From: an uncultured bacterium
Lineage (GTDB): Bacteria; CAIJMQ01
DNA length: 34,825 nt
Direction: 5' to 3'
Assembly: GCA_964573245.1 (NCBI GenBank)
Contig: CAZNJA010000005.1
Span: 1 to 34,825 of the forward strand
The stretch's first letter is position 1, and each line of letters begins with the position of its first letter. The position numbers are program-made. Of the stretch, positions 30,001-33,000 are shown one piece after another.

Positions 30001-33000
30001 CAACGCAGAATTTGCTTCCCAAGTTGATATTTGCATGCCCATGTATAATATTGTTGCAGAATCCCCTTGTATAAATGTTGAGAACAGGGTCGTATGATAC
30101 TCTGTAAGAAAGTCTTGTGAGCCAGTTGTAAAGGATAATTATTGTTAGTAATAGAGGGGTGGACAACCACACAACATTTTCAATTGCAGTGTTTCTGAAC
30201 ATATGGCCTAAAATGTAATAAAAAGCAAGCCCTGAAATTCCGCCGCCCAAACCATAGTTATTTCTTGAGAAGAACCAGCTTGTTATGATGATTACCGCAC
30301 ATAATGGAAAAATCCAGACCCCATATGTTAAAGCAAAATCAAATATGGCACTTCCTTTTTCTAACAGCAGCATTACCAGCCCCAATTCCGTTGATATGGC
30401 TATTGCGCAAATAATTCTGTTGGTTTCTCTGCGTATGAATCCGGGAACAATGCTTATTATCAACAGATTAAACATTACTAAAAAATACAAAGGTGTCAAA
30501 TGTCCAAAATTTTTGAAGTACGGAGCATTTGCAAGTCTGAATGCGTACAGTATTCCGCTTATCATAAAAAGGTGACCTAAAAGCGAAATCTTTAAATTCG
30601 GGACATGGGGAAAAGATATTATAGTTACAAACAACATTATTGCTAAGCCGAATATATAGTAGAGAAACATAGGCCCTATTCCCAATAAATAACTTGTTTG
30701 AAAAAAAGAAAATTTTTCCGGTTGAGTTATTTGATAATACCATGGGATAGCCAATATCAACGGAAACATCAGGAAAGGCAATAATCCCCATATCTCGGGA
30801 TGGAACGGAGTTTGTGAGGTACGTTTTTTTATATTTAGTAGCCAGAATACAAAAAGCAGAAAAGGTTTCATTTTCAGTTATATTATATACTATATATTAG
30901 CAGTTAGTAATTATTTATTGATACGATAGACAATCTTGCAATGGGAGTGTTAAAATAATGGTTAGAAATAAAAAATGAAATTACCTGTAATCACGATAAA
31001 GGGCGAAAACATCGCAGAAATTTGGGAAAAAAGCCTTGTAGCTTTATGGGAAAAAGGTACAGAAAATAAAACCGAATACGATAAAAAGTCAGACCCTCCA
31101 AGTAAAGACGCAACAATGATTATGGCTATAAATCAACCGTTTTCCGAGCCGAGAATTCATCTTGCGTTTCCCGGCGGGATGGAAGATTTGGAAAAATACA
31201 GACAAGAAATAGTTTTTGGTGTTCACGATGATTGGATAAACCCCGAAGAAGGTAAGTGGACATATACTTATCACGATAGACTTTTTAATTATCATTTGCC
31301 GCAGAATCCGAAAGAAGCCGTTCACCCCGTTAGAAGTAGGTCACCTTTAGGTGACCGTACGGAAATGCCAAAGGCACTTCCTACTTCTAACGGGGTGAAT
31401 CAAGTGGAAAAATTAATAGAAAAACTTTCTAGTACTTACTATTCGAGAAGGGCCCAGGCAATTACATGGATACCTTTTTGCGATGCCGATACCAACGATC
31501 CGCCTTGTCTTCAGCGAATATGGTGCAGAATTTTTGAGGAAAACAGCGAACTTTATTTGACGATGAATACACATTGGCGTTCAAGAGATGCTTACAGAGC
31601 GGCTTTTATGAACCTGTTTGGTATTACGGAACTTCAAAAATATATTGCTGAAGAGATTTCCAAGAAAATTGACAGGAAAGTAAATATTGGAAGATATGTG
31701 GATATTTCCGATTCTTATCATATTTATGGGGAAAGTTTTCCCGATTTTAAGAATAGGTTTTTGAATCTTTTGAGCAAGAGAGAATTTTATAATTCAGAGA
31801 TTTCCAAAAGCAGGACTATCAGGAGCGATGACGCGATAGTGGTGCAGGGTTTTGAATACGGGAAAAAACTTTTGGAAATGGAAAAGCAAACAGGCAAAAA
31901 AGGCGCGACATTTTAAATGAAAGTAAAAAATTAAAATGCCCTTAGAGATTGCAAAGCAATCTCAAGGACTGGGTCCCGGAAATCCTTTGGATTTCTCGGG
32001 GCAAAAGGCAAAATAACAAATCAAAATTAATAATCAATCACCAGACAAAAATTTAGAGAAAAAACAATTTGGTTATTGGAATTTAGGATTTAAATGTTGT
32101 TTAGTCATTGTGTCTTGTTTTTAGCTATTAAGAATATTCTATTTACATTTTAATATGTAATTTCCCTCTGGAATTTCGTGGAAATTCCGAGGACTTAGTC
32201 TCCCTAGAAAGGGACTAAATCCCTGGAATGCTCTGCATTCCTAGGGGTGATATTTGATTTTTGCATTTTACATTGATTAGGAGGGGTATTTTGAAAGTTT
32301 TCGGGATTATTCCGTCAAGATTTGGTTCGACCAGAGCAAGAGGAAAACTTTTGCGTAAAATTTTAGGCAAGCCATTGATTGAATGGGTTTGGCAAAACGT
32401 TTCGAAGATGTCGTTTTTCGAAGGTGTTTTTATTGCAACCGACAGTGAAGAGATAGAAGGCACGGCAAAAAACTTTGGCGGAAAAATAATCAAAACTTCT
32501 TCATTGCATAAATGCGGCACGGACAGAGTAGCAGAAGCCGCCAGAATTCTGGATATTGCCGATGAGGATGTAATTGTTAATATTCAGGCGGACGAGCCGT
32601 TGATTTCTTCTTTATCAATAGAAAATCTTGTATTGTCTTTGAGGAAAGCAAGAACAATCGACATGGCAACATTGGCATATCAATCGTCAAATATAGAAGA
32701 ATTTACTAACAGTAATGTGGTAAAAGTAGTCGTTGATAATAAAAATTTTGCTCTTTATTTTTCGCGTTCACAAATTCCTCATTATCGCAACGGAGTGAAA
32801 AAAGGTTTTACCCCGTTAGAGATAAAAAAGAAAAATTATGACTTATCTAACTGCTTTATAAGTAAAAAGAAAGAGAGCCCGAACCTTAAGCGTAATTTAC
32901 GCTCCGACGTATCGTCGGAGCCATCTCTAACGGGGTTTAAATTTTTGAAACACTTGGGTATATATGCTTATAAAATGGATTTCTTGCAAAAAATTACTAA

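What a model noticed while it worked through the whole genome (the two positions that open the first line are those of the whole stretch)
31325..32935. Palindromic elements inserted in frame into many housekeeping genes
A palindromic element family with terminal repeats CCCCGTTAGARRT / AYYTCTAACGGGG (47-128 nt) and short GC-rich hairpins are inserted in frame in protein-coding genes. This span holds the copies in the thymidylate-synthase-like gene (31325-31395) and in kdsB (32811-32935). In all there are 22 copies in 21 genes, including ileS, panC, trpE, nadA, proB, gpsA, mfd, ribF, truB and pseudopilin leaders. In 8 further genes the element's TAG supplies the stop codon. The insertions are recent and differ between congeners.
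Evidence so far: - Census of 49 pairs: 22 intragenic, 15 at gene ends, 12 intergenic. - Phases are 16, 6 and 0, never the TAG frame. - 21 of 22 intragenic lengths preserve the frame, against 13 of 27 others. - Empty or filled state of panC, kdsB and ileS in relatives. - 17 of 31 mappable sites are empty in G001, and 12 of 22 mappable G001 copies are empty here. - In 800 orthologues there are 47 own-specific insertions of at least 10 aa, 37 of them strong hairpins. There are 44 G001-specific ones, 25 of them hairpins. - The strict pattern occurs only in the genus. - Independent contigs span two of the insertions.
(Added by a program. Inside this text positions count along the whole contig: contig position 1 is position 1 of the stretch shown here. 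"Call 12" and the like, gene names such as g00115 and contig names such as C1 are that model's own, and its searches are not shown. The text may have been shortened before it was handed on; [...] marks where a part breaks off. The agent that wrote the report below was given it as the finding of a first reader that could run no searches.)

Follow-up and report, generated by a model that had tools for sequence, protein, structure and literature searches.

The report
Tiny transposons translated inside housekeeping genes
A family of very small mobile DNA elements has landed inside about twenty essential genes of an uncultivated bacterium without breaking their reading frames, much as is known from Rickettsia, so the enzymes most likely carry extra loops.

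Summary
Window 31325-31395 (71 nt, in a thymidylate-synthase-like gene) and 32811-32935 (125 nt, in kdsB) are two of 51 copies in this 1.46-Mb genome of an element bounded by the inverted ends CCCCGTTAGARRT / AYYTCTAACGGGG.

Nineteen copies lie inside Pfam-supported genes. Eighteen of those 19 have a length of 2 mod 3. None is read in the frame that holds the arm's TAG.

- There is a clear 4-bp target duplication (16 of 51 copies here, 31 of 70 in metagenome contigs). The target is TTTA followed by C, so the inserted length is L+4 and stays in frame.
- The family is not confined to the genus. It occurs on many unrelated metagenome contigs.
- Most intragenic copies are old rather than recent. 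kdsB and truB are filled only in this species among those compared.

I read it as a non-autonomous transposon (MITE) family. Copies survive in coding DNA only when they are frame-neutral and free of stops, and they are then translated as 10-43-aa loop insertions. This is the Rickettsia palindromic element phenomenon in a different lineage, with record titles of relatives pointing to Ratteibacteria/Omnitrophota. No transposase was found, and translation is inferred rather than shown.

The parts
31325..31395 (.). 71-nt element copy. It has 16-bp inverted ends and two GC-rich hairpins (31339-31356 and 31361-31381) separated by GTAC. It is read as HPVRSRSPLGDRTEMPKALPTSNGV. The flanks are TTCA/TGAA, which are inverted rather than duplicated.
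   Evidence: orthologous copies in G001-G004
30975..31916 (+). Host gene 1: a thymidylate-synthase-like protein of 313 aa (methanogen type). It scores below the NCBIfam cut-off and passes Pfam PF00303. The insert sits in a loop that is short and free of the element in more distant relatives.
32811..32935 (.). 125-nt element copy. It consists of inverted ends, an AT-rich core, TTAC (32897-32900) and a 9-bp-stem GC hairpin (32901-32921). It is read as (F)TPLEIKKK...SEPSLTG, about 42 aa, and is open in only 1 of 6 frames, the one that is used.
32807..32810 (.). Left copy of the 4-bp target duplication, TTTA.
   Evidence: the G003 empty site holds a single TTTA at the homologous place
32936..32939 (.). 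Right copy of the 4-bp target duplication, TTTA.
32291..33172 (+). Host gene 2: kdsB (CMP-Kdo synthetase). It has a TTG start with GGAGG upstream. It is the only kdsB-like locus in the assembly. The homology to solved KdsB structures is split by the insert.
18309..18434 (.). Third copy in the window, 126 nt, with arms TCCC.../...GGGA (one mismatch each). A 460-codon minus-strand ORF ends at the TAG of its arm.

Best explanation
The two features are copies of a non-autonomous DNA transposon family (a MITE).

Anatomy, shown directly:
- Perfect 13-16-bp terminal inverted repeats (CCCCGTTAGARRT).
- A 4-bp target-site duplication at a TTTA|C-like target.
- A length of 28-155 bp with no room for a transposase gene.
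- A modular interior. One base inside an arm there is often a GC-rich hairpin with a variable stem, followed by GTAA or GTAC. Long forms add an AT-rich core, and short forms carry a second hairpin.

Mechanism, inferred: a DDE-type enzyme acting in trans makes a 4-bp staggered cut and pastes the element in.

Fate in genes: the genome is small and mostly coding, so most landings hit genes. A copy persists inside a gene only under three conditions. L+4 must be a multiple of three (L = 2 mod 3). The host frame must avoid the arm's TAG/TAA frame. The interior must have no stop in the frame used. For L = 2 mod 3 both arms are open in the same two frames and closed in the third, which the sequence shows directly. 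This explains why the intragenic copies are the short, GC-rich hairpin forms, and why the AT-rich forms sit between genes or at gene ends, where the arm's TAG often becomes the stop codon.

The surviving copies are then transcribed and translated with the host gene as 10-43-aa insertions (PVR...SNG or PLE...LTG) in permissive loops. This step is inferred. The inserts behave as tolerated passengers, not as new functional domains. In prepilin-like genes the element end plus the duplication (GGGG+TTTA) re-creates the G|FT cleavage motif, so only the discarded leader grows.
For: Terminal repeats and copy number.

Target duplication:
- 16 of 51 copies in this genome; 0 of 20,000 permutations reach that.
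- 31 of 70 distinct elements in metagenome loci.
- The duplicated 4-mers vary but match within each copy (TTTA, TTCA, TGAA, TCAA, TTGA, TAAA, CAAA).
- 47 reconstructed empty sites give T 45, T 44, T 34, A 46, then C 30 of 47.

Empty sites in congeners: kdsB; the intergenic copy C13:31306, where G002 and G003 have a single TTTAC (G001 reads TTTCC); truB, ribF and nadA.

Frame filter:
- 18 of 19 intragenic lengths are 2 mod 3 against 16 of 32 others; phases are 14/5/0.
- Intragenic copies have 1-4 open frames of 6, while 17 of the 32 others have none.
- Interior GC is 0.52 for intragenic copies against 0.37 for the rest.

Host genes are real and not redundant:
- Pfam families match in 19 of the 20 host ORFs, in most of them across or on both sides of the insert.
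- 13 of the 20 host ORFs have no second locus; for the other 7 the extra hits are paralogues at no more than 49% identity or another copy of the element itself.

Loop position:
- KdsB homology to PDB chains runs over query 5-167 and 217-289 against chain 5-165 and 181-254.
- The AlphaFold model is confident for the core, and only residues 165-214 fall below pLDDT 50.
- The thymidylate-synthase insert lies in a length-variable loop.

Passenger behaviour: orthologous inserts are 0.62-0.94 identical, against 0.76-0.85 for the rest of the gene.

Prepilin sites: 4 of 14 GFT[LV][IV]E-coding sites are directly preceded by an element end.

Contigs from other runs span both window copies.
Against: - No transposase with matching ends was found. 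PF01609, PF13701, PF13358 and PF13359 gave no match in the four genomes of the genus (PF01609 matched once, in G004 of the sister genus), and PF13843 gave none but its control rang nowhere. The one rve gene is an IS3-type element with unrelated ends. No transposase-like ORF lies between distant arm pairs in 80 metagenome loci.
- Only 2 of 19 intragenic copies show the duplication. Several, including the thymidylate-synthase copy, have inverted flanks (TTCA...TGAA) instead. For the short forms, insertion with a 4-bp duplication is therefore extrapolated from the long forms.
- The same site carries different interiors in different species in the thymidylate-synthase gene, ribF, ileS and nadA. 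Simple insert-and-decay does not explain this.
- Translation of the inserts rests on frame statistics only. No RNA run was listed, and no proteomics is available here.
- Gene calls are ORF-based.
Confidence: 0.8

Rival explanations
1. The mobile unit is REP-like and is moved as single-stranded DNA by a tyrosine (HUH, RAYT/IS200-type) transposase. This enzyme would recognise the GC hairpin and its adjacent tetranucleotide. The long inverted ends would be secondary.
For: - A hairpin sits one base inside the arm and is followed by GTAA or GTAC. On the other strand this reads TTAC plus a hairpin, which I recall as the layout of IS608/REP ends.
- 51 of 194 element ends have such a hairpin, against 19 of 970 shuffles. 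There are 37 different but fully complementary stems.
- Hairpin families also occur without the arms: 135 of 158 GC-rich perfect hairpins lie outside the elements, against 25-33 hairpins in shuffled genomes.
- Y1-transposase-like genes exist in G000 (1), G002 (4) and G003 (2). One of them scores as a REP-associated tyrosine transposase, below the cut-off.
- Intragenic REPs, and TAG from the tag acting as a stop codon, are described in the passages read from PMC3733652.
Against: - The flanking 4-mers vary between copies but match within a copy. That is the signature of a staggered cut, not of a fixed target plus a fixed end.
- The G000 copy lacks the HUH motif, as seen in its sequence.
Confidence: 0.1
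2. The inserts are domesticated modules kept for a function. That function could lie in the protein, or in the DNA or RNA hairpin (for example mRNA stability, pausing or supercoiling), rather than the inserts being neutral passengers.
For: - Stems co-vary and the hairpins are kept.
- The thymidylate-synthase site has stayed occupied in all five genomes of the family.
- Lengths of 2 mod 3 are also over-represented outside genes: 16 of 32 here and 35 of 70 in metagenomes, p 0.005.
Against: - Orthologous inserts diverge as fast as the host gene or faster in 4 of 5 comparisons.
- Interiors are swapped between species.
- The KdsB insert is predicted to be disordered and is absent from five relatives.
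- The length bias disappears when each distinct length is counted once (20 of 47, p 0.2).
Confidence: 0.07
3. The inserts are not translated. They would be removed from the RNA or bypassed by the ribosome, or the host genes would be pseudogenes.
For: There is no direct evidence for translation. No RNA run was available.
Against: - Removal or bypass would put no constraint on length or stops. Yet 18 of 19 copies keep the frame, 0 of 19 use the TAG frame, and all are stop-free.
- The host genes are intact and mostly single-copy (ileS, kdsB, panC, nadA, ribF, truB), with full-length family matches.
Confidence: 0.02

Closest known systems
Rickettsia palindromic elements (RPE; Ogata et al. 2000, 2002). 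Seen only through passages of the reviews PMC10969869 and PMC2229807.
   Same: - Small palindromic repeats, dozens per genome, in a genome of about 1.3-1.5 Mb.
- Inserted in frame into about 19 conserved, unrelated genes as well as between genes.
- They add a peptide.
- Presence differs between species.
- They are regarded as tolerated selfish DNA.
   Different: - The host is unrelated (record titles of relatives say Ratteibacteria/Omnitrophota), and the element sequence is different.
- Here the ends are sharp 13-16-bp inverted repeats with a demonstrable 4-bp duplication and a TTTA|C target. The RPE duplication is listed as '?' in Table 1 of PMC2229807.
- The copies in genes are shorter (29-125 nt).
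- The interiors are modular and are swapped between species.
- Translation and enzyme activity were shown for R. conorii gmk (passage in PMC2229807). Nothing of that kind is shown here.
Intragenic REPs, GTAG- or CGTC-tagged (Di Nocera et al. 2013, PMC3733652; abstract and passages read)
   Same: - Short GC-rich hairpins, single or in pairs, lie inside ORFs and encode 20-30 aa.
- Many are in repair genes; here uvrC, mfd and an Ogg-type glycosylase are hit.
- The repeat's TAG is used as a stop codon.
- Tyrosine-transposase-like genes are present in the genomes.
   Different: - The elements here are bounded by long inverted ends and a target duplication.
- The tetranucleotide next to the hairpin is GTAA or GTAC, not GTAG or CGTC.
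[quoted passage not shown]
Classical bacterial MITEs (Correia/NEMIS, RUP, ERIC; passages of PMC2229807)
   Same: Non-autonomous, under 200 bp, with terminal inverted repeats and a target duplication, and presumably mobilised in trans.
   Different: - Those elements mostly use TA targets and lie between genes. RUP has stops in all six frames.
- Here the duplication is 4 bp at TTTA|C, and 19 of 51 copies are read through inside genes.
Cut-and-paste transposons with 4-bp T/A-rich duplications and ends that begin CCC (piggyBac and IS1380-type). This is recalled, and is a lead only.
   Same: The size of the duplication and its T/A-rich target, and the CCC start of the ends.
   Different: No such transposase was found: PF13701 gave no match, and PF13843 gave none but its control was silent.

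Membership tests
MITE (non-autonomous inverted-repeat transposon) | Terminal inverted repeats | tested here: met
   13-16 bp. There are 29 pairs with both 10-nt cores exact and 51 with up to 1 mismatch per arm.
MITE (non-autonomous inverted-repeat transposon) | Target-site duplication of fixed length | tested here: met
   4 bp in 16 of 51 copies here, with 0 of 20,000 permutations reaching that, and in 31 of 70 metagenome elements. It is not seen for 17 of the 19 intragenic copies.
MITE (non-autonomous inverted-repeat transposon) | Small, many copies, no transposase gene inside | tested here: met
   Length 28-155 nt in this genome; 10-26 strict copies in each genome of the genus.
MITE (non-autonomous inverted-repeat transposon) | Filled and empty sites among relatives | tested here: met
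   kdsB, truB, ribF, nadA, ileS and the intergenic copy C13:31306.
MITE (non-autonomous inverted-repeat transposon) | A parent insertion sequence with the same ends | tested here: inconclusive
   None was found in five draft genomes (81-96% complete), in 80 metagenome loci or in 80 viral loci. Multi-copy elements are often missing from such assemblies.
Rickettsia palindromic elements | Member of one of the described RPE sequence families, in Rickettsiales | tested here: not met
   Record titles of close relatives name Ratteibacteria/Omnitrophota. No comparison with RPE sequences was made.
Rickettsia palindromic elements | In-frame insertion into conserved protein genes | tested here: met
   19 genes with Pfam support; 18 of 19 are frame-preserving by length.
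Rickettsia palindromic elements | Insert compatible with the fold (at the surface) and the protein expressed | tested here: inconclusive
   The KdsB model keeps a confident core with the insert as a low-confidence excursion, and the PDB homology is split at a loop. Expression cannot be tested with these tools.
REP / RAYT system | 20-40-bp palindrome with a conserved tetranucleotide tag | tested here: inconclusive
   Of the 51 hairpins next to the arms, 11 are followed by GTAA and 3 by GTAC. The tag is not GTAG or CGTC.
REP / RAYT system | Tyrosine transposase gene flanked by the repeats; no target duplication | tested here: not met
   Y1-like genes are present but are not flanked by the arms or the hairpin families. 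A duplication is present.

The most novel reading that the evidence does not exclude
This could be an undescribed, widely spread MITE superfamily of uncultivated bacteria whose geometry is an adaptation to life inside coding DNA. The relevant features are a 4-bp duplication, lengths of 2 mod 3, arms open in two of three frames in either orientation, and an end that re-creates the prepilin G|FT site. On this reading the family acts as a general generator of loop insertions in proteins. It would be driven by a transposase of an unknown kind. A second layer of REP-like hairpin modules, which resemble tRNA anticodon arms, would be swapped in and out of resident copies.
Probability: 0.2. Interest if true: 0.75.

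Novelty: new member of a known kind. Interest (0 to 1): 0.55.

Why it matters
In-frame colonisation of housekeeping genes by selfish palindromes is usually cited as a peculiarity of Rickettsia. Passages of the 2024 review PMC10969869 call its frequency there unusual and only 'conceivable' elsewhere.

Here the same outcome appears on the same scale (19 genes in 1.46 Mb) in a free-living candidate lineage. Three things differ from the Rickettsia case: the element has a readable transposition signature (ends, 4-bp duplication, TTTA|C target), filled and empty alleles exist among congeners, and relatives of the element occur on many unrelated metagenome contigs.

This gives a cleaner system for asking how proteins tolerate random loop insertions and what moves such elements. 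There is also a practical point. Annotation and orthology pipelines will see these inserts as lineage-specific 'domains' or as misassemblies.

Tried and rejected
- **Earlier findings:** this resource was closed.
- **RNA evidence:** no RNA holder was listed among 13 runs. The four DNA runs I laid gave contigs only, and no joint skipping a whole element was seen.
- **Known RNA families:** nothing in Rfam matches the elements in the window or in two loci with intergenic copies.
- **Transposase hunt:**
  - Pfam PF01609, PF13701, PF13843, PF13358 and PF13359 gave nothing in the genus. The PF13843 control was silent, so that blank says little.
  - PF00665 found an IS3-type element in G002 with unrelated ends.
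  - Unpaired arms in G000 are degenerate partners or chance matches. No pair lies 0.3-3 kb apart on one contig.
  - Distant arm pairs in metagenome loci enclose ordinary genes.
  - 31 unpaired 14-mer matches look like chance hits in coding DNA.
- **Viral contigs:** 0 of 80 loci fetched (of at least 120 matches to a loose pattern) hold an arm pair.
- **Integron attC sites:** rejected by eye, because the GTT...AAC order is the reverse of what I recall for attC.
- **'Frame-neutral by design':** the 2-mod-3 excess outside genes is p 0.06 here and p 0.005 in metagenomes, but p 0.2 when each distinct length counts once. This is left as the novel case only.
- **Ogata 2002:** the paper could not be opened by DOI. 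RPE features are taken from review passages.
- **Not attempted:** I sampled 10 sites instead.
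Full report
**What is at the coordinates**

Window 31325-31395 is a 71-nt palindromic unit. It has 16-bp inverted ends and two GC-rich hairpins separated by GTAC. It lies inside a 313-aa ORF (30975-31916, +) that matches thymidylate synthase: Pfam PF00303, E 6e-8, and the methanogen-type NCBIfam model below its cut-off.

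Window 32811-32935 is a 125-nt unit with the same ends, an AT-rich core and one hairpin preceded by TTAC. It lies inside kdsB (32291-33172, +; PF02348, E 5e-52; above two NCBIfam cut-offs).

The 10-nt core of the ends, with up to one mismatch, occurs 9 times in the window against 1.0 expected. A third copy lies at 18309-18434.

**Census in the genome**

The window is contig C5 of a 1.46-Mb, 38% GC, 110-contig assembly. I found 29 pairs with both cores exact, and 53 pairs with up to one mismatch per arm. After dropping two outer or nested duplicates, 51 remain.

- Twenty lie in ORFs with at least 30 codons on each side.
- Nineteen of these hosts have clear Pfam families: ribF, truB, two prepilin-like DUF1559 proteins, the thymidylate-synthase-like gene, kdsB, an anthranilate/aminodeoxychorismate synthase, a glycosyltransferase, lipB, ileS, panC, nadA, an Ogg-type glycosylase, an M48 peptidase, uvrC, proB, an Mrp/Nuo antiporter subunit, gpsA and mfd.
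- The twentieth (C53) is a spurious reverse-strand ORF. On the other strand that copy sits in the leader of another prepilin-like gene.
- Eighteen of the 19 have a length, measured CCCC to GGGG, of 2 mod 3, against 16 of the other 32 (Fisher p 0.0016).
- The reading phases are 14 (xxC CCC GTT AGA, giving PVR...SNG), 5 (xCC CCG TTA GAG, giving PLE...LTG) and 0 for the frame CCC CGT TAG.
- Fourteen ORFs of at least 80 codons end inside an element, nine of them at that TAG.
- Thirteen of the 20 host ORFs have no other locus in the assembly. For the other seven the extra hits are paralogues at no more than 49% identity, or another copy of the element.

Sixteen of the 51 copies are flanked by identical 4-mers: TTTA seven times; TGAA, TTCA and TCAA twice each; CAAA, TTGA and TAAA once each. 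Permuting the right flanks gives a mean of 4.5 and a maximum of 12, and 0 of 20,000 permutations reach 16. The kdsB copy is one of them (TTTA at 32807-32810 and at 32936-32939).

The true inserted length is therefore L+4, which is why L = 2 mod 3 keeps the frame. The sequence also shows directly that, for L = 2 mod 3, both arms are open in the same two frames. The third frame carries TAG in one arm and TAA in the other.

Forty-seven reconstructed empty sites (16 from this genome, 31 from metagenome contigs) give the target T(45) T(44) T(34) A(46) followed by C (30 of 47). The duplicated 4-mers vary between copies but match within a copy. This points to a staggered cut rather than a fixed target joined to a fixed element end.

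**Relatives**

The strict pattern is present in all four genomes of the genus (26, 10, 23 and 12 copies). It is absent from the five other genomes of the phylum that are held. One or two copies occur in two distant genomes. Record titles of close relatives read Candidatus Ratteibacteria or Omnitrophota. Congeners are only about 75-80% identical in DNA.

| Site | G000 | G001 | G002 | G003 | Others |
|---|---|---|---|---|---|
| kdsB | filled | empty | empty | empty | G004, G005 empty |
| truB | filled | empty | empty | empty | |
| ribF | filled | empty | filled, different interior | empty | |
| nadA, internal | filled | filled | remnant | empty | |
| nadA, 5' | filled | no element | no element | no element | |
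| ileS, C-terminal | filled | unrelated 8-aa stretch | different short element | short stretch, no element | |
| ileS, second site | empty | filled | filled | not recovered | |
| Intergenic C13:31306 | filled | empty | empty, single TTTAC | 212 nt of other sequence, then TTTAC | |

The G003 empty kdsB site holds a single TTTA at the homologous place.

The thymidylate-synthase site is different. It is occupied in all five genomes of the family:
- 25 aa in G000 and G001.
- 36 aa in G002, where the second hairpin is replaced and a 33-nt mini-element is nested in the left arm.
- An 11-aa unit with a different hairpin in G003.
- A bare arm-arm unit in G004, which belongs to another genus.

The site is free of the element in five more distant homologues. 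So some insertions postdate speciation and others are old.

Consistent with this, only 2 of 19 intragenic copies keep the duplication, against 14 of 32 others. Orthologous inserts are 0.62-0.94 identical, where the rest of the gene is 0.76-0.85 identical.

**Distribution beyond the genus**

- Of the 80 loci fetched with flanks, 51 hold an arm pair.
- They give 70 distinct elements, 31 of them with a perfect 4-bp duplication (TTTA 14 times, TAAA 7 times).
- Seven lie inside long ORFs, all in the PVR...SNG phase, and five of those seven have length 2 mod 3.
- None of the 51 loci has a flanking protein at least 70% identical to this genome: 8 are at 50-70%, 26 are below 50% and 17 have no hit. 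Their GC content ranges from 0.33 to 0.57.

The family is therefore much wider than the genus. The query end favours the long AT-rich forms, so the low intragenic share in this sample cannot be compared with that of G000.

**Anatomy of the interior**

One base inside an arm there is often a perfect hairpin with a stem of 6-11 bp. I found one at 51 of 194 element ends, against 19 of 970 shuffled controls. There are 37 different stems, and the hairpin is most often followed by GTAA (11 cases) or GTAC (3 cases).

GC-rich perfect hairpins are about five times over-represented in the genome as a whole: 158 against 25-33 in shuffles. They fall into recurrent families, 135 of the 158 lie outside the elements, and 70 lie in long ORFs by an ORF-only criterion. 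One of them accounts for a second, G000-specific 14-aa insertion in panC.

Hairpins are also nested inside other hairpins, in the ribF, C22 and C13:1166 copies.

Together with the interior swapping at orthologous sites, this suggests a second, REP-like layer of mobility or recombination. I could not resolve it.

**Effect on the proteins**

KdsB homology to solved structures is split: query 5-167 and 217-289 align to chain 5-165 and 181-254. An AlphaFold model built from a six-sequence alignment has mean pLDDT 78, a confident core, and only residues 165-214 below 50. The insert thus extends a loop between two strands.

The thymidylate-synthase insert also lies in a length-variable loop.

In the prepilin-like genes the element sits exactly before FT(L/F)IE. 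The element end GGGG plus the duplicated TTTA re-creates G|FT, so the mature pilin is unchanged. Four of the 14 such sites in the genome carry a copy.

**What moves it**

This is unknown.
- No DDE family that I tried is present in the genus, apart from one IS3-type element with unrelated ends.
- Y1 (RAYT-like) genes exist but are not flanked by the arms or the hairpins.
- No long element with these ends turned up in G000, in 80 metagenome loci or in 80 viral loci.
- All genomes searched are drafts, 81-96% complete.

**Comparison with what is known**

The closest precedent is the Rickettsia palindromic elements: 105-146 bp, in frame in 19 conserved genes of R. conorii, and tolerated by the enzymes. 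I read passages of PMC2229807 and PMC10969869; the original papers were not held.

Di Nocera et al. (PMC3733652, abstract and passages) describe intragenic REPs, including in uvr genes, and TAG from the repeat acting as a stop codon.

The present family works like these but is not a member of either. It has sharp inverted ends, a 4-bp duplication and a defined target.

No paper in the library holds 'miniature inverted-repeat' together with Omnitrophota. The 8 papers that contain the 10-nt arm core have unrelated titles; I saw the listing only. The 10 papers that mention Ratteibacteria do not concern repeats, judged by title and the start of the abstract.

**Verdict**

- The element is a MITE family with a clear transposition signature.
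- The in-frame pattern is best explained as a survivorship filter on insertions into a gene-dense genome.
- The phenomenon is a new instance of a known kind.
- Translation of the inserts and the identity of the transposase remain open.

Noticed in passing
G000:C14:12788-13100, G000:C10:26290-26360, G000:C58 near 8100-8144: Next to intact tRNA genes lie tRNA-like fragments, three in tandem on C14. They keep the acceptor and D arms or the T arm, but a member of the CCGACG-TWA-CGTCGG hairpin family stands where the anticodon arm should be. ARAGORN does not call them. Infernal calls only the neighbouring intact tRNAs.
   Followed up: partly
G000:C21:16682-16785 (5' end of nadA): A 104-nt copy with a TGAA duplication carries AAGGAG followed by an in-frame ATG. 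The nadA reading frame can therefore start inside the element. Congeners lack it.
   Followed up: partly
window 31917-32290: The spacer between the two host genes holds other palindromic repeats. Contig depth peaks there (31927-32005 and 32164-32242), and similar units end in TCTAAGGGGG on contigs C1, C29 and C82. This is a different repeat family.
   Followed up: no
window 26328-26598 (-): A full-length bacterial large SRP RNA (Rfam RF01854, 184.7 bits).
   Followed up: no
G000:C12:23856-25166 (locus L022): A 437-aa ORF whose N-terminus resembles a REP-associated tyrosine transposase (below cut-off). It lacks the HUH motif and continues into a predicted membrane segment and a long tail. It may be a domesticated or decayed copy.
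   Followed up: partly
G000:C3:11003-11106, C22:9709-9812, C13:1166-1316: These copies show hairpin-in-hairpin nesting: a second GC-rich palindrome sits in the loop of the hairpin next to the arm.
   Followed up: no
locus L008 (G003 thymidylate-synthase site); G000:C36:9418, C60:6939, C86:4408: A separate palindrome family, CCCACACC-loop-GGTGTGGG, also bounded by CCCC/GGGG, occupies the thymidylate-synthase site in G003. It recurs in G000.
   Followed up: no
G000:C93:3338-3466: A 129-nt copy abuts tRNA-Leu (3464-3551) and shares its last three bases with the tRNA gene.
   Followed up: no
locus L207 (G002:C20:13128-16424): An IS3-family insertion sequence with about 25-bp inverted ends unrelated to the element. 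It is the only rve-type transposase found in the five genomes.
   Followed up: partly
G000 intergenic copies of 100-106 nt (e.g. C7:38200, C47:7021, C95:2450, C34:3699, C70:5238): A subfamily with a conserved core containing a TATAAT-like stretch. It is closed in all six frames and has similar copies in G001-G003. It might carry a promoter or a small RNA. Rfam found nothing in two of them.
   Followed up: partly
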